From a virus (lineage: Duplodnaviria; Heunggongvirae; Uroviricota; Caudoviricetes), in IMG/VR virus record IMGVR_UViG_2671180676_000008: DNA of 49,350 nucleotides, one strand, 5' to 3'. The notes under the pieces are model-generated. The model had not been told where the DNA came from. It did no database searches and saw only the letters and a list, made by a program, of their open reading frames with translations. How positions within the stretch are numbered: the first letter of the stretch is position 1; every line of letters begins with the position of its first letter. Below are positions 22,318-37,170 of the stretch, in pieces. The position numbers were made by a program, and so were the translations under genes.

Positions 22318-23628
22318 TTAAATCCGAAGTGATGTGACTCTTCCGGTCGGTTTGACAATAGGGAATTGCTTAACGATGAAATAACCTCCGGCATCATTCG
22401 GGTGATCATTGCCAGATTTTTTATCAGGCTCCCCCTTCTCATCCCAGACCTGTTGCTCCAGAGATTCGGCATATAACGGGCAACGCTTCACATTAACTTT
22501 ATAGCGACGCTCACCATTGGCATTGCAGAACATTGCATTCATTGAGTTAACGCGATCTTTTACTGGCGGGTTCGAGCTGTTCACCACAACGTTAAAACCA
22601 GCCTGCTTAAGCTGGGCTATATCCGTCGTACTTGCGTTACTTGATTTTCTGGAATCCCCGGAAGCATCTGGATAAATATAAATTTCCCTCACTTTCCGGT
22701 AATCATTCCCATCATACAGCCAGAAGCGTTCTTTAATGATGCGGATCATATCCGGCGTATCGTAGGCATTGATGATTTCAGTTACCGCACATGGAAGCCC
22801 CAAACGCAGCACATGGACGATTCCCGCCATCTTTCCAACGTTAAAATCCATCCCAATATAAATCGGCTCCCCTGGCTGCTCCACTTCTTCGCAATTATTC
22901 AGTTTCCGGTCAAACTGATGGTAAACAGTACCACTTGTCAGGTTAGTAAACTGTCCTCGAAGATAGGCTTTAATCAGCTCTGGAGGGTATGATTCAAGAA
23001 GCGAAGGAATGTAATCTGCTGGCAGGTTCTTTTCATTATCGAAAGTAGATGCCTGCACCAGACCATACAGTGAGGCCAGCTCTGTTTTTTCACGCACGGC
23101 TTTAACAAACTGCTCGTAGACAAATTTGAATCCTTCCGGCGTGGTTGTAACGTCAATACCGTTGCGAAGTCCATCAATCTTATAACGCATACGTGCAATT
23201 ATCTTGCGCCACGCCGTTCTGGCTTTTTCCTTCGGCAAAATGTCCAGTTCATCCACCAACGCATTACCAATTTTGAAACCGACGATCGTTTGTGGCTTCT
23301 CCATCGATCTGCAGATAGTGGTTCCCCGATACTGGCGTCCGTAATAAAAGTGAACCTCTTTATTTCCCTCATTAATTTTTACGTTCAATCCCCAGTCAGC
23401 AGCAACTTCTTCCACTGTAGGGTAAAAAATATCGCGAATTTGGGGATACGTTGGCGCAAAATATCCCTGATTTATACCTGGATGCTCCCAAATCCCCTTG
23501 CATATGCCGCCACACCCAACCCATGTTTTGCCCGAGCCAAAACCAGCAATATAGGCTTTAAATTTATGGGGCATTGAAAGAAATCGCGCCTGAGGCACAT
23601 TAAGCGTCGGAGAGATCATCTTCATCAC
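22318..23628 (-). CDS. terL: Terminase large subunit
   Basis: Walker A GFGSGKT near the N-terminus and a nuclease-type C-terminal domain; 436 aa. Confidence 0.85.
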   Translation of the reverse strand: MMKMISPTLNVPQARFLSMPHKFKAYIAGFGSGKTWVGCGGICKGIWEHPGINQGYFAPTYPQIRDIFYPTVEEVAADWGLNVKINEGNKEVHFYYGRQYRGTTICRSMEKPQTIVGFKIGNALVDELDILPKEKARTAWRKIIARMRYKIDGLRNGIDVTTTPEGFKFVYEQFVKAVREKTELASLYGLVQASTFDNEKNLPADYIPSLLESYPPELIKAYLRGQFTNLTSGTVYHQFDRKLNNCEEVEQPGEPIYIGMDFNVGKMAGIVHVLRLGLPCAVTEIINAYDTPDMIRIIKERFWLYDGNDYRKVREIYIYPDASGDSRKSSNASTTDIAQLKQAGFNVVVNSSNPPVKDRVNSMNAMFCNANGERRYKVNVKRCPLYAESLEQQVWDEKGEPDKKSGNDHPNDAGGYFIVKQFPIVKPTGRVTSLRI

Positions 23629-24694
23629 TCCTTACTCTGGCATCAACCACATTAATATTGATCGCCACAGGCTGGGGATGTTCATTATCTTCCACCGTTT
23701 CGATCTCTTTGCGCAGCTTCTGGTTTTCCATTCTGCGCCGTTCAATTTCCAGTTCCTGTAGCCGTTTATCTGCACATAAAGCCCCGCCAGCAGAAAACAA
23801 ACGCAACAATTCACGCCGGGCGGCAGCCTTATCCTCCAGCAGGATCTCAACGCCGAATTTTCCGAATTTTGCCCCTGCATATAATTGCCGCGCATCCCCA
23901 TCAAGCAGAGTGGTATCAGCCATATAAAGCTGTCCCGTTCCCTCACCGCAGCACTTCGGGCAGTCCGGATTGGGTATGGCGTTATCAACAAAGCCGAGGC
24001 CTCCATATTCCGGTTCGGGTTTGCCATCTCTGGAAGCCTGCGCCGCTGCCTTGTCGAATTCTGCTATATCGCGCCACTGGTAGAGATGATTCTCGCCCCA
24101 GCAATAACGGCAGTTAACACGGCGAAATTGTGCAAGCTGATTGGGGTCGGCCAGGACAATAGCCATCAACTGACTCACTAGTAAATCCAGGTCTGCGGTA
24201 TAGCGTTTCTGGTACTGATTGCGGAAGTAGCTGATAGCGCGAAAAACCCTGGCATTTCTAAGCATACGACTGGCGTTGCTGTTAGCTGTCGCACCTTGCC
24301 CCTCATAACCGGCTAGTCGGTACGCCTCTGTCGGCTTTTTACCCTGAGCAACAAGCATCGCAAACTTAGCCTGCTGGTCAGAAATGCCGAATTCATCGGG
24401 ACAGAACGAAAATTCCTCCGCGTCGCCCTCATTCAGGCCCGCATCGAATACTGGCTTTTTTTCCTGAGATTTTTCGTTCCGCTTTTGTGCAGTCTGCGCA
24501 GATTTTTTCTGCGCACTTTTTTGCGCAGTTTTGCACATTTCTGTCTGCGCATTTTTCGGAGTTTTTTTGATGTAACGACGGGCTGTTGCGTAATTCAGTC
24601 CCCTTGCTTCACACCATGCCACCGGAGATATACCGGAGCGGGTGTATTCAGCAATATACTCCTGCTGCAACGCCCCCCAGTCCGGTCTGCTCAT
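23600..24694 (-). CDS. terS: Terminase small subunit
   Basis: N-terminal HTH, charged linker, conserved PTEAYRLAGY-type terS motif; immediately upstream of terL. Confidence 0.7.
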   Translation of the reverse strand: MSRPDWGALQQEYIAEYTRSGISPVAWCEARGLNYATARRYIKKTPKNAQTEMCKTAQKSAQKKSAQTAQKRNEKSQEKKPVFDAGLNEGDAEEFSFCPDEFGISDQQAKFAMLVAQGKKPTEAYRLAGYEGQGATANSNASRMLRNARVFRAISYFRNQYQKRYTADLDLLVSQLMAIVLADPNQLAQFRRVNCRYCWGENHLYQWRDIAEFDKAAAQASRDGKPEPEYGGLGFVDNAIPNPDCPKCCGEGTGQLYMADTTLLDGDARQLYAGAKFGKFGVEILLEDKAAARRELLRLFSAGGALCADKRLQELEIERRRMENQKLRKEIETVEDNEHPQPVAININVVDARVRSDEDDLSDA

Positions 24695-24697
24695 CAG

Positions 24698-24949
24698 TTA
24701 GTCCTGATTTTTATCCACCCTGAGTAGTTCGCGCAGAGCAAAGGCATCCCCTTTTCTGGCAAGCTTAAACAATGCCGCTCGTAACTCGGCTTCACCTTTC
24801 GCTCTGCCCTTACGGATGGCCGCATAAAAATCTGTCATTGCTTCCCGATTTTCTTTCAGTCGGTTCAGATCAACATCCAGAACGTCAGCGATTTGTTGTG
24901 CAGTCATCCGGCACGCTGCCAGAGACTCGACTTTCGAATACGGAATCAT
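24698..24949 (-). CDS. Hypothetical protein (83 aa)
   Basis: ORF between the GT-A-like gene and terS; start uncertain because of overlap. Confidence 0.4.
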   Translation of the reverse strand: MIPYSKVESLAACRMTAQQIADVLDVDLNRLKENREAMTDFYAAIRKGRAKGEAELRAALFKLARKGDAFALRELLRVDKNQD

Positions 24950-25817
24950 TTGTCACCCCCATTGATATGCAGGGTGTCTTCTTCCTGTATTTTTCGTGAA
25001 GGATTTTTACTGCAGCGTTGTTCCAGGTGACCTGATGGTGAATGCGTTTATGGCTGGCACCCATCAGTGAGATTTTTACGCACGACGGCGCATACATGAC
25101 GGAGTAAAAACTTTTAACGTAGGTTCCGGAATCCAGATACAGCTCGGTCATTCCGCCGCTGTTTTTCTGCGTCTGTTTCTGCCCTAACTGGACAGCACCG
25201 ATCGTCATAAACAATTCACCACAGCGACCGAGATTCGTGTACGTATTCACATCCTCGTTAATGCGCCCCATGAATGAGAACGGTCGATCAACCGAACAGA
25301 TAAAGCTGTTCATTGCCTTGCGTTTCACCCACGAAGCATGGCCGCCATTGTCACCAAGAAAATCCCCGCCCTGCGACATAGCGATGGAAAGAGCAGGTAT
25401 TGATTCGTAGTACGCCAGCATTTCAGAAAGGATCGCATCCAGTTTCCTTATCGGAAAATAGGCCTGGTCATAGTTGCGATCCACCCGAAACTGGAACTCG
25501 TGATAATCATCATCGAGCTGAATGAAGTATTTACACCCGACCAGTTTTGCCAGGTCGAAACAGGCATTACGGGCGTAAAAAATTGAGCGGCGGTCACAGA
25601 AATTATCGGCTTCGTCAAAACGACTGGCGATATCGGCTTTGGAAAACACCAGCACCTGTTCACCAAATTCAGCCATGTACTGATGCCGTGTCTTATCTTC
25701 ATCATCAACAACGATAAAAATTTTCCCGGTATAGCCAGCACGACGCAACGTCCGGTAAGTCAGAACTTTGTCCGGTCGCCCGTGAGTCAGAATAAAGGCG
25801 CAAAAATCATCACGCAT
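24885..25817 (-). CDS. GT-A-fold glycosyltransferase-like protein
   Basis: ILTHGRP...IVVDDEDK and a DxD-type QLDDDY motif resemble GT-A nucleotide-sugar transferases; start taken at the internal Met to avoid overlap with the upstream gene. Confidence 0.45.
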   Translation of the reverse strand: MRDDFCAFILTHGRPDKVLTYRTLRRAGYTGKIFIVVDDEDKTRHQYMAEFGEQVLVFSKADIASRFDEADNFCDRRSIFYARNACFDLAKLVGCKYFIQLDDDYHEFQFRVDRNYDQAYFPIRKLDAILSEMLAYYESIPALSIAMSQGGDFLGDNGGHASWVKRKAMNSFICSVDRPFSFMGRINEDVNTYTNLGRCGELFMTIGAVQLGQKQTQKNSGGMTELYLDSGTYVKSFYSVMYAPSCVKISLMGASHKRIHHQVTWNNAAVKILHEKYRKKTPCISMGVTNDSVFESRVSGSVPDDCTTNR

Positions 25818-26601
25818 ATTCCTCCTCCTCACCACCATGCATGATCTCCACCATGCGCTGCGTCATCCGGACAAATCCATTTTCAATAGCCTGCTGATAA
25901 TCAATGATCACCAGCGCCGACTCCTCGAAAAAACACTGAATTTCAGAGGGGGCGTGAGCGTAATAGTCCGCAATTCTGCTGAAATTAAACACCGTGTGAC
26001 GTTCTGCCGCACACAGGAGGAATTTCTCAATATCAGGCTCAAGGGACGCCGAACGTATCCGGCTGATCAGCTCCTGAGTTTTCGTATCGTCGTACAGTTC
26101 ACTGATATCCGGTTTACCGCCCGACGGCTCATAAACAGGCGTATCAATTTTCGTCGTATACGGCTCCTCCTCATTTCCTGTACCGGGCAAAACATCCGTC
26201 AACAGTTCATCAATTTCTGTCGGGATGAAGCCTGTCAGGGAGACATCAAAATCAGCATTGATTAGGTCCGACAGCTCCATCCGCAACAGATCTTCATCCC
26301 AGCCAGCATTCATCGGCAGGCGATTATCTGCCAGGCGGTACGCCTTTTTCTGCTCATCCGTCAGGCCAGACAGAACAATGACCGGAACAGAATCCATTTT
26401 GAGCATTTCAGCCGCCATAACACGACCGTGACCCGCAATAATTTCGCCCTTTTCGTCAATCAGCACCGGATTAGTCCAGCCGAATTGCTTAATACTTTCT
26501 ACCAGTTGTGCCACCTGCTCAGTACTGTGCGTCCTGGCGTTGTGCGCATACGGTGACAATTCTTGTAATGGGCGATAGACTATCTTTAATTTCTCGCTCA
26601 T
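25810..26601 (-). CDS. ParB-like nuclease domain protein
   Basis: N-terminal ParB/Srx-type motifs (PYAHNARTHS, GHGR); the short K-12 Rac ynaK looks like a remnant of this gene. Confidence 0.75.
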   Translation of the reverse strand: MSEKLKIVYRPLQELSPYAHNARTHSTEQVAQLVESIKQFGWTNPVLIDEKGEIIAGHGRVMAAEMLKMDSVPVIVLSGLTDEQKKAYRLADNRLPMNAGWDEDLLRMELSDLINADFDVSLTGFIPTEIDELLTDVLPGTGNEEEPYTTKIDTPVYEPSGGKPDISELYDDTKTQELISRIRSASLEPDIEKFLLCAAERHTVFNFSRIADYYAHAPSEIQCFFEESALVIIDYQQAIENGFVRMTQRMVEIMHGGEEEEYA

Positions 26602-26618: not shown

Positions 26619-26652
26619 ATAAAACGCACCCCAGCAGCCAGTGCTACTGGGG
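26619..26652 (-). terminator. Rho-independent terminator downstream of trkG
   Basis: Stem ccccag/ctgggg (26629..26652) followed on the - strand by GTTTTATT. Confidence 0.45.
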
Positions 26653-26738: not shown

Positions 26739-28196
26739 TTAGGAGCGCCAAAAAAAACCTGAAAACAATATAATAACAGGATAAATTTCAAGGCGACCAA
26801 GAATCATAGCTATGCACATTAAGCATTTTGCAATGTCATTAAGTACTCCGAATGACGATGCAGTAGCCCCAAAACCTAATCCCATATTATTAATACATGC
26901 AGCCACTGTTGCAAATGATGTAAGAAAATCATATCCCATACCATTTAACACCAGTATAAAAAACACCGTGAAGAGAGTATAAAGAAAAAAGAAACTCCAT
27001 ACAGACCTCATTACACGATCTGTAACTATCTTCCCTCCTACATTTACACTCAACAACGCTCTGGGATGAGAAAGCTGATTTATCTCGTGTTTGCTTTGTT
27101 TGAAAAGTATAAGAAATCGAAGTGACTTAATTCCACCACAAGTTGAACCTATACATCCCCCAAAGAAACTTGACAACAGCAAAAACACTATCGTGTGCGT
27201 GGGCCAACTTGCATAATCCTGCGTAGCTAAACCATTATCAGTGAGCATGGAGCTGGCAAGAAAAAACGAATGAATAAAACTTCCATGCAAGTCATACATA
27301 CCTATATGCCAGACCTGGAAAGAGGTAACAATGATCACCCCTAAGGCTATTAACAGAAAGAAACGAAGTTCAATATCTCTGATTAAAGGTTTTATCGTTT
27401 TCCTGCTAATAACAATATACCAAAGAGTGAAGTTGAAAGCCGATAGCAGGGAAAAAGAACCAGCCACCAGCTCAACCAAATAGTTATTAAAATATCCGAT
27501 ACTCTCGCTATGAGTTGAGAAACCACCAAGCGAAACTGTGGAAATCCCGTGACAAATAGCATCAAACAAAGGCATTCCTGCAAGTCTATAACAGACAATA
27601 CAAGCAATACCTAATAAAGAATAAGTTATCCACAGTGTCCGTGACGTATCGGCCAGGCGGGGAGTGAGTTTGTCATCCTTAAATGGCCCCGGCATTTCTG
27701 ACTGATAAAGCTTTGCACCACCAATACCCAATAATGGCAATACAGCAACCGCCAGAACAATAACTCCTAAACCACCTATAAAATTTAACTGTGACCGATA
27801 GTACAAATATGCCCGAGGTAATGAACTAACATCATCAATTACAGTTGCTCCTGTTGTTGTTATTCCAGAAACCCCTTCAAACAGAGCATCAATGAACGTT
27901 AAATTAAGTTCTGAGTCAATCCATAAAGGGAATGCACTAATAACAGAAAACAAAATCCAAAACATTACAATTATAATAAACCCATCACGGGTACGTAATT
28001 GAATGCCAGATTTCTTAGTTGTATACCACGCTCCGCCACCAATGCAAAAAAATATAACGAAAGTTATAAAGAAAACAAACAGGCTTTTTTCTTTATAAAA
28101 CAATGCTACAACCATTGGTGGCAACATTGAAAGACTATAGAGCCAAACCAGGAACCCACACATATGAGTAACAACTCTTACATGAGATGTATTCAT
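26739..28196 (-). CDS. trkG: Trk-system potassium uptake protein TrkG
   Basis: Polytopic membrane protein with repeated GxGG selectivity-filter-like segments, recognised as the Rac trkG product; AT-rich gene; start taken at MNTSHV. Confidence 0.9.
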   Translation of the reverse strand: MNTSHVRVVTHMCGFLVWLYSLSMLPPMVVALFYKEKSLFVFFITFVIFFCIGGGAWYTTKKSGIQLRTRDGFIIIVMFWILFSVISAFPLWIDSELNLTFIDALFEGVSGITTTGATVIDDVSSLPRAYLYYRSQLNFIGGLGVIVLAVAVLPLLGIGGAKLYQSEMPGPFKDDKLTPRLADTSRTLWITYSLLGIACIVCYRLAGMPLFDAICHGISTVSLGGFSTHSESIGYFNNYLVELVAGSFSLLSAFNFTLWYIVISRKTIKPLIRDIELRFFLLIALGVIIVTSFQVWHIGMYDLHGSFIHSFFLASSMLTDNGLATQDYASWPTHTIVFLLLSSFFGGCIGSTCGGIKSLRFLILFKQSKHEINQLSHPRALLSVNVGGKIVTDRVMRSVWSFFFLYTLFTVFFILVLNGMGYDFLTSFATVAACINNMGLGFGATASSFGVLNDIAKCLMCIAMILGRLEIYPVIILFSGFFWRS

Positions 28197-28333
28197 ATCT
28201 AAATATTCTTTCAATTATAACCACCTTGCTGCAATATTATGATTATACTGTATAAAATTTAACTCCTCTTAGATCTTACTTCACTGTTCCTTATGAAACA
28301 ATCATCAAAATGAATCATATTGTAGTTAAGATT

Positions 28334-29962: not shown

Positions 29963-30532
29963 TCATTGAACATATAAAAAAACAGCCGAGATAAACATCG
30001 CCGCTACCGGAGCAAGGATGGTATACATCCTTGCTTTATCGAGACTCGTGCGGATTTTCTCATTTTCCAACAGTAACTCTCTTGCTGTATCACTCAAGTC
30101 AACAAGGCGATACCTTCGTATAAGCGGCAATAACTTATCAGGTCCTAAATATCCTGCATCAGCGAATATTTTAAAGCTCGAGGGCTCCATATCCTTATAT
30201 TTTTCATGATATAGATGATCAGGAGGGGCATTGATCAGGCCCCTAACCTTCACAGATAAACCAGTACATACCAAGTAAATGGCGCACCATGTCCATAGTA
30301 ATGTAAATGTGGTAATTCCGGCGGTGAGAAAATCGAAATTAGTTTTCTGTGTCAGCAATAAAAAAGATGAACCAATTCCAACAATCTGAATGTTCAGAAG
30401 TTTGTATCCATTCTCAACATTGGTTTTGTTAGAAAGATGAATCTCTCGTATCGTCTCTTCCCCTTGTTTTTCAAGATAATCGACGAGCTCATCATCTACT
30501 CCTAAAAAATAATCTTTAGGTAGTTCTCTCAT
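29963..30532 (-). CDS. Hypothetical membrane protein (Q-S moron)
   Basis: 189-aa AT-rich ORF with about three hydrophobic segments, between the post-Q terminator and the holin. Confidence 0.55.
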   Translation of the reverse strand: MRELPKDYFLGVDDELVDYLEKQGEETIREIHLSNKTNVENGYKLLNIQIVGIGSSFLLLTQKTNFDFLTAGITTFTLLWTWCAIYLVCTGLSVKVRGLINAPPDHLYHEKYKDMEPSSFKIFADAGYLGPDKLLPLIRRYRLVDLSDTARELLLENEKIRTSLDKARMYTILAPVAAMFISAVFLYVQ

Positions 30533-30753: not shown

Positions 30754-31296
30754 TCAAGCTATTTTTTGAGCAAATGATTCTCGCATGGGAATATATAGGG
30801 CATACTCAGCAACAGCCAACCAATTAGCAATTCGCTTTTCGCATGTGCTAAAACACCACTCAGGATGTGCATCATTTAGCAATTCAGCCATTTTGCGCTT
30901 AGTCATCCCCCGTCCTTCATACCGTTGCCGGAGGACACTAATCAATCCAGGATGCTCTGCCAGCACCTCACTTATGACTCTATCAATACATAACGCCTCT
31001 GCATCAGTACAATGCGCCAGCCAGGTCTTTTGCTTGCCATTGATCATCTCTCGCAAAAACGCTTCCAGCTCAGGTTTCTCTATTCCCGCTTTTTTCATCC
31101 TGCGCAGGGCTTCATTGACGGCTGTTTTCGTCAATTTTTTGGATGCCAGCAACTGGTTAAACATATTTCCCGTCTTACCGCCGCCAATATACGACCAGCG
31201 CCCCCACATGCGCAGTTTTCCCTGAATCCAGACACTTTCCAGCGTGGTGAGACGAAGGTGTTCCCCGCTTTTGCCTGTATTTGTTGGGTAAATCAT
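30754..31296 (-). CDS. Late antiterminator Q (phage 21/82 QuuD-like family)
   Basis: LRMWGRW segment resembles QuuD-type Q proteins; immediately upstream of the lysis genes; start taken at MIYPTN to avoid overlap. Confidence 0.6.
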   Translation of the reverse strand: MIYPTNTGKSGEHLRLTTLESVWIQGKLRMWGRWSYIGGGKTGNMFNQLLASKKLTKTAVNEALRRMKKAGIEKPELEAFLREMINGKQKTWLAHCTDAEALCIDRVISEVLAEHPGLISVLRQRYEGRGMTKRKMAELLNDAHPEWCFSTCEKRIANWLAVAEYALYIPMRESFAQKIA

Positions 31297-31583
31297 AAAT
31301 AACCTTCCTTTCTCCAGATTTCTTGTGTGCGAAAAACACCTTCTGCATGCATCAGGCGTAATTCTTCTTTGGTGTAATCGCTGGTTTTTACCCGCCCGTC
31401 GATTAAATCGTGGCATGAGCTACAGGCAATCGCTGCCTGCATATCGTGTGGTTTTGTCGCTGTTCCGCACGTCCCCGCCAGCCTGTAATGCGCCAGCACA
31501 GAGGTTTCGGGATTGTGATTGCAGTAGCCAGGGATTCTGATCTGGCACATCTGGCCTTTAGCCGCTTTACGTAAATTCACCAT
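31293..31583 (-). CDS. YbcO-like Cys/His-rich nin-region protein
   Basis: 96-aa ORF with a C..C..H..C..C..H pattern, just upstream of Q. Confidence 0.5.
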   Translation of the reverse strand: MVNLRKAAKGQMCQIRIPGYCNHNPETSVLAHYRLAGTCGTATKPHDMQAAIACSSCHDLIDGRVKTSDYTKEELRLMHAEGVFRTQEIWRKEGYL

Positions 31584-34096: not shown

Positions 34097-36422
<2,326 letters not shown>

Positions 36423-36540
36423 TTTAATTACCTTATATATCCAAACTCTTAATTTTCTCTTTTTTACCATAGGATTAATCCAAAATAAAGACCTTGTTGA
36501 CTAAACCCTCATGTACAAAATGCACACTTACTCAAAAGGA

Positions 36541-36566
36541 TCTGGAGGCAATCTCGACCTCCATGA
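36541..36566. promoter_or_regulatory. Imperfect palindrome between the TetR-like gene and the deaminase operon (candidate operator)
   Basis: atctggaggcaatctcgacctccatgat contains the inverted repeat tggagg / cctcca. Confidence 0.3.
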
Positions 36567-36723
36567 TTTAGTTCCTAGGGATAAGCAGAAATCTAGCACT
36601 GGATTAAAATTTAAAAATAATAATCAATAGGTTATAATGGTTTTTATTCGCATCCATGGGATCTGCTGCTGCCCGCATGATGTTGGATGCGACGGCGCTG
36701 GCACGACCTCACCCGGTGAAACG

Positions 36724-37170
36724 ATGAAACGCGAAAGGGTTGTTCTTCGGGAAGGTGCAGTTGGACTTTCAATCGATGACGTTGCAAAAGAGGCTGGCGT
36801 CAGTAAGGCAACGGTAATGTACGATCATAAGTCAAAGCAAGATTTGCTCAGCGATCTCATCAGTCGCCTTATGCCAGTAGAGGAGGAACGTGTTCAGCAA
36901 GCGATAGCGGAAAGTAATAATACCCCACATCCCGCACTCTATGGGCGAATTATTTCAGCCAGTAATGCTCTCAGTCATACTGAGAGAGCAGTAGTGCTGG
37001 CGGTCAGCGAATCGTTAACTAACGATACGAATATCAGGGACACCATGCGTTCCTGCACAAACAAAGATTTGGATGAGATAAAAAGAGGACCAAAACCAGA
37101 CGTTGCCGTCCTGGTATATTTGGCGTTATCTGGTATCTACTGCCAAGAATTTTTTGATTTTTACAAATGA
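36724..37170 (+). CDS. TetR-family-like transcriptional regulator (short)
   Basis: LSIDDVAKEAGVSKATVMYDHKSKQDLL resembles a TetR N-terminal HTH; divergent from the operon; alternative start at 36637. Confidence 0.55.
   Translation: MKRERVVLREGAVGLSIDDVAKEAGVSKATVMYDHKSKQDLLSDLISRLMPVEEERVQQAIAESNNTPHPALYGRIISASNALSHTERAVVLAVSESLTNDTNIRDTMRSCTNKDLDEIKRGPKPDVAVLVYLALSGIYCQEFFDFYK

What the first reader, a model, noticed from the sequence alone, without database searches (positions are those of the whole stretch)
24885..26601. ParB-like nuclease plus GT-A-like enzyme immediately upstream of the terminase genes
A ParB/Srx-domain protein and a 317-aa protein with GT-A-like motifs (IVVDDEDK, QLDDDY) lie between trkG and terS. 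ParB-like domains upstream of terminase genes are common in pac-type phages and have been linked to DNA-modification cassettes. The pair could modify phage DNA or act in packaging. The GT-A assignment rests on short motifs only.
Basis: inference. Interest (0 to 1): 0.5.

Follow-up and report, generated by a model that had tools for sequence, protein, structure and literature searches.

The report
Phage glycosyltransferase with obligate ParB-like partner
Two overlapping genes just upstream of the DNA-packaging genes of this E. coli Rac-type prophage encode a sugar-transferring enzyme of the family that decorates phage DNA and an acidic ParB-like helper that always accompanies it; the phage has no annotated or detected enzyme for making the base such enzymes normally glycosylate, so its target is an open and easily testable question.

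Summary
Window 25810-26601 (-) encodes a 263-aa ParB/Srx-fold protein. Window 24885-25817/25838 (-) encodes a 310/317-aa GT-A glycosyltransferase of Pfam family TAGT (PF20691, E=4e-35). The predicted fold matches GT-A enzymes. Both lie in the late operon between trkG and terS of an intact Rac-like prophage.

New here: the two genes form a strict two-way pair. All 52 evaluable loci from different species, plus cultured phages of Lactobacillus, Nocardia, Porphyromonas and Vibrio and a haloarchaeal virus, have the partner directly upstream with overlapping stop and start. Of 79 loci seeded with the partner, 78 carry the glycosyltransferase.

The constant part of the partner is not the ParB domain. 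It is a linker motif (YTxKIxxPxYEP) plus a C-terminal domain with no significant Pfam or PDB match. Versions without the ParB domain exist and sit beside DNA polymerase, primase or helicase genes.

No TET/JBP dioxygenase or hydroxymethylase is annotated or detected in the window, and none is annotated in the 31.8-kb phage c5.

Best reading (about 0.45): a partner-dependent DNA glycosyltransferase acting late, near packaging, on an unknown acceptor. The 'nuclease' label is unsupported.

It is a new variant of a known kind. It is testable in E. coli, for example in ETEC H10407.

The parts
25810..26601 (-). Partner protein, 263 aa. It is the full-length form of K-12 'YnaK': a ParB/Srx NTP-binding-fold N-domain, a conserved linker motif, a C-terminal domain and an acidic tail.
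   Evidence: ORF; PF02195 and phrog_620; AF2 plus Foldseek matches to Noc/ParB/PadC/KorB. pI 4.5, net charge -25. K-12 ynaK is its 87-aa N-terminal remnant at a deletion junction.
26194..26601 (-). ParB-type N-domain plus short helical segment (aa 1-136). Box II reads GHGR (aa 57-60) and box III reads ADN (aa 91-93).
   Evidence: Aligns to GERR and IEN of Noc. This N-domain scores much better against the N-terminal modules of phage DNA methyltransferase families than against Pfam ParB_N or TIGR00180: phrog_498 E=9e-51 and PADLOC MTase_II E=1.5e-38, versus E=9e-7 and 1.3e-9.
26125..26160 (-). Conserved linker motif YTTKIDTPVYEP (aa 148-159) inside a segment predicted to be disordered.
   Evidence: Y148, P155 and Y157 are invariant in 19 to 47 partners from many phyla and an archaeal virus. 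pLDDT is below 50.
25837..26106 (-). Partner C-terminal domain (aa 166-255; FLxxAAxRHxVFNFxxIADYY...EESALVIIDYxxAIENG). This is the constant, TAGT-linked part of the partner.
   Evidence: It is more conserved than the ParB domain. It occurs alone, without a ParB domain, in Vibrio phages and several contigs. No Pfam or PDB sequence match.
24885..25817 (-). TAGT-family GT-A glycosyltransferase, 310 aa from ATG 25815-25817. The maximal ORF runs to 25838 (317 aa).
   Evidence: PF20691 E=3.8e-35 and phrog_842 E=7e-104. AF2 model pLDDT 73; best PDB matches are GT-A enzymes; BFVD TAGT proteins match at TM 0.7-0.8. Start position.
25506..25514 (-). DDD codons (D109-D111, the DXD metal/diphosphate motif at the end of a beta strand).
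   Evidence: Invariant in 35 homologues. The strand spans residues 104-109 in the model. The R...DDD...ED motif is reported for phage GT-A DNA glycosyltransferases and JGT.
25810..25817 (-). 8-nt stop/start overlap ATGCGTGA, preceded by GAGGAGGAGGAA. This indicates translational coupling of partner and TAGT.
   Evidence: Sequence read. The same kind of overlap is seen in nearly all related loci.
26629..26652 (-). Terminator-like hairpin after trkG. No promoter-like site lies between it and the partner gene.
   Evidence: sequence. This suggests the pair is read from the late transcript rather than from its own promoter (inference).
24698..24949 (-). Small ORF (69 aa from ATG 24907, or 83 aa) between TAGT and terS. 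It resembles a terS-like helix-turn-helix piece and is probably part of the packaging genes, not of the module.
   Evidence: phrog_309 E=8e-23. Annotated as hypothetical. An ORF of similar size (79-85 aa) lies at the same position in three enterobacterial relatives, L092, L093 and L125.
22318..24694 (-). terS (23600-24694) and terL (22318-23628), the packaging genes that follow the module.
   Evidence: Terminase_2, Terminase_6N and Terminase_6C; annotation.

Best explanation
The two genes encode a two-protein glycosyltransferase system that most likely glycosylates phage DNA after replication, late in the lytic cycle and close to packaging. The 310-aa enzyme is a catalytically intact, basic GT-A glycosyltransferase of the TAGT family. 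It would take a sugar from a nucleotide-sugar through its DXD/Mn site and add it with inversion. The 263-aa acidic partner is made in fixed ratio with it through translational coupling. The partner binds the enzyme through its conserved linker motif and C-terminal domain. Its ParB-type NTP-binding module is the kind found fused to phage DNA methyltransferases, and it would license or position the enzyme on double-stranded DNA. This parallels the recently shown activation of phage thymine dioxygenases by cognate ParB-like proteins.

Shown here: the folds, the conserved catalytic residues, the obligate pairing, the position in the operon, and the lack of any annotated or detected hydroxymethyl-pyrimidine pathway.

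Inferred: that DNA is the substrate, that the two proteins form a complex, and when they act.

Unknown: the acceptor atom and the sugar.
For: (1) Enzyme identity. TAGT PF20691 scores E=3.8e-35. The GT-A fold is supported. R21, D45/D48, DDD109-111 and NED194-196 are invariant and match the R...DDD...ED motif of phage DNA glycosyltransferases and JGT. Other characterised members of the family act on DNA bases: T2/T6 and phage GT-A enzymes.

(2) Obligate pair. The partner lies directly upstream with stop/start overlap in 52 of 55 loci from different species. The other three are contig-edge or truncated cases. The same holds in phages phi jlb1, c5, HHTV-2, NTR1 and a Porphyromonas phage. In the reverse direction, 78 of 79 loci seeded with the partner domain carry TAGT, and the remaining one runs off its locus.

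(3) Both kinds of neighbours are DNA machines. A terminase large subunit lies within three genes downstream in 38 of 56 loci, of four different TerL families. Partner versions without the ParB domain sit next to DNA polymerase A, an AAA_25 ATPase, or primase and helicase.

(4) The ParB module scores best against the N-terminal modules of phage DNA methyltransferase families (phrog_498 E=9e-51, PADLOC MTase_II E=1.5e-38).

(5) Precedent. ParB-like proteins with an NTP-binding domain and a C-terminal domain, but no DNA-binding domain, activate cognate DNA dioxygenases on dsDNA. ParB and terminase genes recur around phage DNA-modification genes.

(6) Other DNA-modification genes (N6_N4 methyltransferases, Mom) and glycan-tailoring domains occur next to or fused with the enzyme. 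These include SAM methyltransferase, sulfotransferase, a second TAGT and sugar-nucleotide enzymes.

(7) Late-operon position without a promoter of its own.
Against: No TET/JBP dioxygenase, thymidylate-synthase-like hydroxymethylase or DNA methyltransferase is annotated or detected in the window, and none is annotated in the 31.8-kb phage c5. None is common in the neighbourhoods. The only acceptors known for this family in DNA (5hmC, 5hmU, glucosyl-5hmC) are therefore not expected to be present.

The partner is strongly acidic (pI 4.5, median 4.6 across the family). It has no recognisable helix-turn-helix domain, so it is unlikely to bind DNA by itself. Box II is GHGR rather than GERR.

GREB1, another TAGT-family member, glycosylates a protein.

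Pyle et al. regard glycosyltransferases without a neighbouring base-modification enzyme as less obviously involved in DNA modification.

No chemical data exist for any phage carrying the pair.

The structure models are only moderately confident outside the N-terminal halves.
Confidence: 0.45

Rival explanations
1. The enzyme glycosylates a protein rather than DNA. Candidates are its own partner (the invariant Tyr/Thr-rich linker YTxKIxxPxYEP would be the acceptor, as in self-glucosylating glycogenin), a packaging or virion protein, or a host protein.
For: GREB1, a TAGT-family member, O-GlcNAcylates a protein. Glycogenin and the peptide S-glycosyltransferases ThuS and SunS are among the structural matches. 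The partner carries an invariant short motif with Tyr and Thr in a disordered segment. No hydroxymethyl-base pathway was found. The genes lie next to head and packaging genes.
Against: A ParB-type module shared with DNA methyltransferase fusions has no obvious role in protein glycosylation. Versions without the ParB domain lie beside DNA polymerase, primase and helicase genes rather than structural genes. GT-A structural matches are generic and say little about the acceptor.
Confidence: 0.2
2. The pair acts in trans on foreign DNA that already carries 5-hydroxymethyl-pyrimidines, such as T-even phages. It would serve as prophage-encoded exclusion, or it would act on rare oxidised bases.
For: All DNA acceptors known for the family are hydroxymethyl-pyrimidines or their glucosides. 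Pyle et al. raise anti-phage hyper-glycosylation by prophage glycosyltransferases as a possibility. The window carries other cargo genes nearby: trkG and an adenosine deaminase/SIR2 cassette.
Against: No promoter-like site precedes the pair, and a terminator-like hairpin separates it from trkG. The pair also occurs in c5, a phage with no integrase annotated in its record, and next to the terminase of Nocardia phage NTR1. Its position next to terminase is conserved across phyla and in an archaeal virus. PADLOC has no defence model that matches the enzyme.
Confidence: 0.1
3. The acceptor is neither DNA nor protein. It could be a small molecule, a nucleotide or an RNA, for example an anti-defence modification of a signalling nucleotide or of tRNA, with the ParB-fold domain supplying or sensing an NTP.
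For: ParB/Srx-fold domains bind various NTPs, and some are small-molecule kinases such as SerK and Srx. GT-A is also the fold of sugar nucleotidyltransferases, which appear among weaker structural matches. The acceptor is unknown.
Against: The family relationship is to glycosyltransferases acting on DNA. The module is fixed next to DNA-handling genes. No sensor or effector genes are linked to it.
Confidence: 0.1
4. The pair is a packaging accessory without glycosyl transfer. The ParB-like protein would act as a nuclease or pac-site factor, and the GT-A protein would be structural.
For: Conserved position immediately before terS and terL. The domain has historically been annotated as a 'ParB-like nuclease'.
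Against: Catalytic GT-A residues are invariant over hundreds of distant homologues. Partner versions without the ParB domain exist away from terminase genes. No nuclease motif or DNA-binding domain was found. The terminase families next to the pair differ, so no specific terminase interaction is likely.
Confidence: 0.05

Closest known systems
Phage GT-A DNA glycosyltransferases of 5mYOX (TET/JBP) or ThyS pathways, and trypanosome JGT (Iyer 2013 'TAGT'; Burke 2021; Pyle 2024)
   Same: Same Pfam family (PF20691), GT-A fold and R...DDD...ED active-site pattern. Phage-encoded, and often near ParB and terminase genes.
   Different: Those enzymes glycosylate 5hmC or 5hmU made by an encoded dioxygenase or hydroxymethylase. 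Here none is annotated or detected in the prophage or common in related loci. This clade has a conserved C-terminal extension beyond the region matched by the Pfam model and an obligate partner gene.
T2/T6 beta-glucosyl-HMC-alpha-glucosyltransferase (the source of the PHROG label on this protein)
   Same: Same Pfam family and fold; the acceptor is on DNA.
   Different: Only a distant relative. No tblastn hit at 1e-5. The T-even-type enzyme ranks 22nd in structure search, at 13% identity. It extends a glucose already on 5hmC in a pre-replicative hmC pathway that is absent here. The label 'beta-glucosyl-HMC-alpha-glucosyltransferase' on these prophage genes is transferred annotation, not evidence.
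ParB-dependent phage thymine dioxygenases (O'Toole et al., PNAS 2026)
   Same: A ParB-like protein with an NTP-binding domain, a disordered linker and a C-terminal domain but no DNA-binding domain. It is encoded next to a DNA-modifying enzyme that it activates on dsDNA with cognate specificity.
   Different: The client enzyme there is a Fe/2OG dioxygenase linked to thymidine hypermodification genes. Here it is a glycosyltransferase, and no dioxygenase was found. Whether the C-terminal domains are related could not be tested, because the sequences are not held.
ParB_N-DNA methyltransferase fusions of phages (phrog_498; PADLOC MTase_II; Kaljevic 2025)
   Same: The N-terminal 140 residues of the partner match the N-terminal module of these fusions far better than they match Pfam ParB_N or TIGR00180. 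PF01555 methyltransferases occur in a few of the related loci, and such fusions are enriched in prophages.
   Different: There the ParB module is fused to the enzyme. Here it is joined to a separate adaptor domain, and the enzyme is a separate, translationally coupled protein.
Chromosome and plasmid partition ParB, Noc and KorB
   Same: Fold of the N-terminal domain; box II Arg and box III Asn are retained.
   Different: No helix-turn-helix DNA-binding domain, no ParA gene and no parS-like palindrome. The protein is acidic and has GHGR instead of GERR. It is not a partition protein.
GREB1 (animal TAGT-family protein O-GlcNAc transferase)
   Same: Same Pfam family.
   Different: It is a eukaryotic multi-domain protein with a protein acceptor and no ParB-like partner.

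Membership tests
TAGT / GT-A glycosyltransferase (PF20691) | Sequence match above the curated threshold | tested here: met
   122.1 bits against a cut-off of 27.5, E=3.8e-35, covering profile positions 4-205 of 205.
TAGT / GT-A glycosyltransferase (PF20691) | GT-A fold | tested here: met
   AF2 model has pLDDT 73, with the N-terminal 160 residues mostly above 90. All top PDB matches are GT-A enzymes, E=2e-5 to 1e-3. Viral TAGT models match at TM 0.7-0.8.
TAGT / GT-A glycosyltransferase (PF20691) | DXD and catalytic acid motifs (R...DDD...ED) | tested here: met
   R21, D109-D111 and E195-D196 are invariant in 35 homologues. Motif as described.
TET/JBP-associated DNA hypermodification pathway | A linked enzyme that makes 5hmC or 5hmU (5mYOX, with or without a C5 methyltransferase, or a ThyS-like hydroxymethylase) | tested here: not met
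   None is annotated in the prophage, none was detected in the window-specific ORFs that were scanned, and none is annotated in phage c5. None appears among the listed Pfam families of 284 flanking genes from 56 loci. Only the 25 most frequent families per list are shown, so rare cases are not excluded.
TET/JBP-associated DNA hypermodification pathway | Glycosyl transfer to a hydroxymethyl-pyrimidine in DNA | not testable with these tools
   Needs biochemistry or nucleoside mass spectrometry.
T2/T6 beta-glucosyl-HMC-alpha-glucosyltransferase orthologue | Close sequence relationship and an hmC/alpha-GT pathway context | tested here: not met
   No T-even hit at E<=1e-5; 13% identity in the structural alignment; no hmC pathway genes.
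ParB/Srx N-terminal domain (PF02195) | Sequence and fold of the NTP-binding domain | tested here: met
   PF02195 scores 29.3 bits against 26.3. phrog_620 E=1e-90. Foldseek matches Noc, ParB, PadC and KorB at E=4e-7, rmsd 3.3 A over 142 columns.
ParB/Srx N-terminal domain (PF02195) | Intact CTP-binding and hydrolysis motifs (GERR box II, EN box III) | tested here: inconclusive
   GHGR aligns with GERR and ADN with IEN. The last Arg and the Asn are kept; the Glu and the first Arg are replaced. NTP binding cannot be judged from sequence.
Partition ParB (ParABS) | Helix-turn-helix DNA-binding domain, a parS site and a ParA partner | tested here: not met
   TIGR00180 scores 38 bits against a cut-off of 58. 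No HTH domain hit. No ParA in the prophage. No parS-like palindrome near the genes.
5mYOX-activating ParB (O'Toole 2026) | Architecture of NTP-binding domain, linker and C-terminal domain without a DNA-binding domain, next to the client enzyme | tested here: met
   compared with the description.
5mYOX-activating ParB (O'Toole 2026) | A cognate 5mYOX client, and homology of the C-terminal domain | tested here: not met
   No 5mYOX was found.

The most novel reading that the evidence does not exclude
The pair installs a sugar directly on canonical, non-hydroxymethylated DNA, either on an unmodified base or at DNA ends, during or just before packaging. That would be a DNA modification chemistry not yet described. 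It would be carried by thousands of prophages, including those of about a sixth to a third of E. coli genomes. The undescribed partner domain would be the factor that makes double-stranded DNA accessible to the enzyme.
Probability: 0.2. Interest if true: 0.9.

Novelty: new variant of a known kind. Interest (0 to 1): 0.6.

Why it matters
Glycosyltransferases of this family are known as the last step of phage DNA hypermodification, after a dioxygenase or hydroxymethylase has made the acceptor base. About two thirds of the phage glycosyltransferase loci found by metagenome mining lack such an enzyme, and they have been set aside as unexplained.

This window shows that a large, very conserved clade of them is a self-contained two-gene module. 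The clade has at least about 8,000 clusters at 90% identity and 1,323 representatives at 50% identity. The module has its own obligate partner protein. It sits next to packaging or replication genes in viruses of Bacteria and in a haloarchaeal virus.

If it modifies DNA, the acceptor must be something new. If it does not, then annotating these genes as DNA-modification enzymes, or as 'beta-glucosyl-HMC-alpha-glucosyltransferase', is wrong for thousands of genomes.

The module is intact in 867 of 5,426 complete E. coli genomes, including ETEC H10407, but deleted in K-12. That deletion probably explains why it has not been studied. The question can be answered with standard E. coli genetics and nucleoside mass spectrometry.

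Tried and rejected
- Hidden TET/JBP, ThyS or methyltransferase genes in the window: none. The low-GC cargo genes are an adenosine deaminase, an ITPase, SIR2 and TetR.
- Natural fusions of partner and glycosyltransferase, as 'Rosetta stone' evidence: none among the 150 best representatives. N-terminal extensions turned out to be a second GT-like domain, a SAM methyltransferase or a P-loop domain.
- Sequence relatives with solved structures. None for the enzyme. For the partner C-terminal domain, only low-scoring matches made of sub-threshold repeated segments in designed armadillo-repeat proteins. No significant Pfam match for that domain.
- PADLOC defence models: no hit for the enzyme. The partner matches only through its ParB module.
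- Structure search against afdb50, to place JGT and GREB1: the library was not available.
- The founding paper of the family (Iyer et al. 2013) and the published Pyle 2024 paper are not held. What Iyer et al. said about ParB-TAGT pairs is known to me only through citations.
- Sequences of the 5mYOX-associated ParBs could not be obtained.
- The first viral-contig scan with the enzyme returned almost only identical E. coli prophages. Diversity came from the species-level genome scan and from a scan seeded with the partner domain.
- parS-like palindromes or repeats near the genes: none convincing.
- tRNA genes: none.
- Complex prediction was not possible.
Full report
**What the window is.** The window is an intact Rac-type lambdoid prophage of E. 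coli. An identical stretch in strain 190 is annotated from intR/ttcA through recET, racR and ydaS-V. It continues with the lysis genes, trkG, the two genes in question, terS, terL, portal, head and tail genes. All late genes are on the - strand. The 2.15-kb region around the finding occurs in 1,610 of 5,426 complete E. coli genomes, and 867 of them hold at least 80% of it. It is also present in ten deposited phage records. In K-12 the cryptic Rac prophage has a deletion that starts inside the first gene. K-12 'ynaK' (87 aa) is only the N-terminal remnant, joined to ydaY, and the glycosyltransferase and packaging genes are gone.

**The observation.** The upstream one (25810-26601, 263 aa) matches ParB_N (PF02195, E=9e-7) and phrog_620 (E=1e-90). 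The downstream one matches the TET-associated glycosyltransferase family TAGT (PF20691, E=3.8e-35) and phrog_842 (E=7e-104). It runs from 24885 to 25838 as the maximal ORF. The real start is ATG 25815-25817, giving 310 aa, as shown by homologues and by PGAP. The two genes overlap by 8 nt (ATGCGTGA). The Shine-Dalgarno sequence of the second gene, GAGGAGGAGGAA, is formed by the codons of the acidic tail of the first. A terminator-like hairpin follows trkG (26652-26629), and no promoter-like site lies between it and the pair. The pair therefore looks like part of the late transcript, and trkG like an inserted cargo gene.

**The enzyme.**
- An alignment of 35 homologues at 58-82% identity has 63% mean column identity. 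Invariant residues are R21, D45/D48, E76-D78-N79, YARN88-91, D109-D110-D111-Y112, Q156/G158/D159, R173-K174, N194-E195-D196, GGMT228-231 and R265/H267/H268/W272.
- The AlphaFold model has mean pLDDT 73. The first 160 residues are mostly above 90 and the C-terminal part is weaker. It is a Rossmann-like alpha/beta domain with DDD at the end of a strand.
- Its best matches among solved structures are all GT-A enzymes: SpsA, chondroitin polymerase K4CP, LH3/ColGalT1, ThuS/SunS, GnT-I, GpgS and glycogenin, at E=2e-5 to 1e-3.
- Among predicted viral structures the best matches are TAGT proteins, at TM 0.7-0.8.
- The R...DDD...ED pattern is the one reported for phage GT-A DNA glycosyltransferases and the trypanosome base-J glucosyltransferase.

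The PHROG label 'beta-glucosyl-HMC-alpha-glucosyltransferase' does not. The T2/T6-type enzyme is not found by tblastn at 1e-5. It is only a distant structural relative, ranking 22nd at 13% identity.

**The partner.**
- The N-terminal ~135 residues are modelled with confidence. They match the NTP-binding domain of Noc, ParB, PadC and KorB.
- GHGR (aa 57-60) aligns with the GERR box II, and ADN with the (I/L)EN box III. One phosphate-binding Arg and the Asn are kept, while the Glu and the other Arg are replaced.
- No helix-turn-helix domain was detected, there is no ParA gene, and there is no parS-like repeat nearby.
- This N-terminal module matches the N-terminal modules of phage DNA methyltransferase families (phrog_498 E=9e-51, PADLOC MTase_II E=1.5e-38) much better than it matches Pfam ParB_N or TIGR00180.
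- After it comes a segment predicted to be disordered, which nevertheless carries an invariant motif, YTxKIxxPxYEP. Then comes a helical C-terminal domain (FLxxAAxRHxVFNYxxIAEYYAHA...LMExSALVIIDFDxAIENG) and an acidic tail.
- Across 47 partners from many phyla, the motif and the C-terminal domain are better conserved than the ParB module. The C-terminal domain has no significant Pfam or PDB sequence match.
- The protein is strongly acidic (pI 4.5, net charge -25; family median pI 4.6). The enzyme is basic (family median pI 8.9).
- Nothing supports a nuclease activity.

**The pairing.**
- A scan of one genome per species returned 55 loci. They come from Enterobacteria, Bacteroidota, Clostridia, Veillonella, Desulfovibrionaceae, Acidobacteriota, Chlorobi, Saccharibacteria and other candidate phyla, and an archaeal MAG.
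- In 52 of them a homologue of this partner lies directly upstream on the same strand, nearly always with its stop overlapping the enzyme's start. The other three are a contig edge, a run-off ORF and a truncated gene.
- The same arrangement is annotated or detected in several cultured viruses. In L. gasseri phage phi jlb1 the pair precedes terS. In L. delbrueckii cos phage c5 the pair is ORF1-ORF2, right after cos. It is also found in haloarchaeal virus HHTV-2, in Nocardia phage NTR1, and in a Porphyromonas phage whose enzyme is only 27% identical.
- The same arrangement appears in metagenomic contigs with HK97-type and lambda-type terminases.
- In the reverse direction, a viral-contig scan seeded with the partner's motif and C-terminal domain gave 79 new loci. 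Of these, 78 have the enzyme gene immediately downstream, and the last one ends too early to tell.

**Versions without the ParB module.** In 195-kb Vibrio phages and several contigs the upstream gene encodes only the motif and the C-terminal domain, about 135 aa. In those checked, the pair sits next to DNA polymerase A, an AAA_25 ATPase, or primase and helicase instead of terminase. The constant partner of the enzyme is therefore the new domain. The ParB module is a frequent addition.

**Neighbourhood.**
- Within three genes downstream, 38 of 56 loci have a terminase large subunit, of four different families. Small subunits and portals are also present.
- Upstream genes are heterogeneous: SSB, VRR-NUC, DNA polymerase, lysis genes, a few N6/N4 methyltransferases, and sugar-nucleotide enzymes.
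- Neither list shows TET/JBP or thymidylate-synthase-like enzymes. The window has none. The 31.8-kb record of phage c5 has none annotated, and no unassigned ORF large enough to be one.
- Fusions of the enzyme occur with class I SAM methyltransferases, a sulfotransferase, a second TAGT-like domain or a P-loop domain, and tandem TAGT genes also occur. These suggest that in some phages the sugar is extended or decorated.

**Literature.**
- ParB and terminase genes are known to recur around phage TET/JBP and glycosyltransferase genes. Aravind and co-workers proposed that ParB directs modification enzymes to DNA during packaging.
- O'Toole et al. (2026) showed that ParB-like proteins lacking a DNA-binding domain activate cognate thymine dioxygenases on dsDNA. 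Mutation of NTP-binding residues had little effect in their assay. That subclass is linked to thymidine hypermodification genes, not to glycosyltransferases.
- Pyle et al. found that about 65% of contigs with such glycosyltransferases lack a neighbouring 5mYOX or ThyS, and left them unexplained.
- Kaljevic et al. (2025) documented orphan ParB-fold proteins and methyltransferase fusions in prophages.
- I found no paper that describes this pair, its partner domain or its product.

**Interpretation.**
- The best-supported reading (about 0.45) is a partner-dependent DNA glycosyltransferase. A catalytically intact GT-A enzyme would be held and licensed by an adaptor that often carries the ParB module used by phage DNA methyltransferases, and it would act late, next to packaging or replication.
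- The weak point is the acceptor. The hydroxymethyl-pyrimidines that this family is known to use are not expected in these phages, and the partner is acidic and unlikely to bind DNA on its own.
- The main rival (about 0.2) is protein glycosylation, possibly of the partner's own Tyr/Thr motif, with GREB1 and glycogenin as precedents.
- Action on foreign hydroxymethylated DNA (0.1), a small-molecule or RNA acceptor (0.1) and a non-catalytic packaging role (0.05) are less likely, for the reasons given under each rival.
- The most novel reading not excluded is direct glycosylation of canonical DNA (about 0.2).

**Verdict.** The system is a new variant of a known kind: a TET-independent TAGT module with an obligate, undescribed partner domain. 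It is of moderate to high interest because it is widespread, unexplained and directly testable in E. coli.

Noticed in passing
window 34097-37170: A low-GC (33-39%) cargo cassette sits in the early region of the prophage. Three overlapping - strand genes encode an adenosine-deaminase-family protein (35442-36470), a Ham1/ITPase-like NTP pyrophosphatase (34891-35445) and a SIR2-like protein (34097-34891; it matches ThsA-type SIR2 models in PADLOC). A divergent TetR regulator lies at 36637-37170. It looks like a candidate anti-phage system that PADLOC does not name as a system. It is present in 81 of 5,426 E. coli genomes. The otherwise identical prophage of strain 190 has QueH and hokD there instead.
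   Followed up: partly
window 25810-26601; L001:21745-22002: RefSeq/PGAP annotates the intact 263-aa partner gene as a pseudogene fragment 'ynaK, missing C-terminus' in a genome whose DNA is 100% identical to the window. The apparent reason is that the reference protein is the truncated 87-aa K-12 YnaK. The full-length gene is therefore missing from at least that proteome, and the same 'ynaK' name recurs in other listed genomes.
   Followed up: yes
window 24470-24569 (inside the 5' part of terS): A cluster of short direct repeats (TCTGCGCA followed by a T-run, 4-5 copies spaced 12-36 nt apart) encodes a repeated AQK/SAQ peptide in TerS. It could be the pac site, which often lies inside terS.
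   Followed up: no
window 26739-28214 and 26629-26652: trkG sits between the lysis genes and the packaging operon and is followed by its own terminator-like hairpin. This fits a cargo ('moron') insertion just upstream of the partner gene.
   Followed up: partly
proteins P0004-P0008, P0021-P0036, P0241, P0256, P0194, P0227: Many E. coli assemblies hold chimeric ORFs. In these the first 150-280 residues of the glycosyltransferase, or the first ~165 residues of the partner, are fused to tail-fibre, Lom, NlpC/P60 or terminase pieces. They mark independent deletions in decaying Rac-type prophages, like the one in K-12.
   Followed up: partly
K-12 ynaK (literature): A 2026 overexpression screen reports that the truncated K-12 ynaK fragment, which is the ParB-fold N-domain alone, raises the MIC of six unrelated antibiotics. 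No mechanism is known.
   Followed up: no
proteins P0248, P0249, P0286, P0270, P0303, P0316; loci L135:3581-5272 and L137:122-964: Relatives of the enzyme are fused to, or sit next to, class I SAM methyltransferases, a sulfotransferase or a Walker-A P-loop domain. Tandem TAGT genes also occur. This suggests that some phages build decorated or extended glycans on the same unknown acceptor.
   Followed up: partly
window 29963-30532: A 189-aa ORF lies between the Q-like antiterminator gene (30754-31416) and the holin gene. It has no Pfam or PADLOC match and is probably another cargo gene.
   Followed up: no
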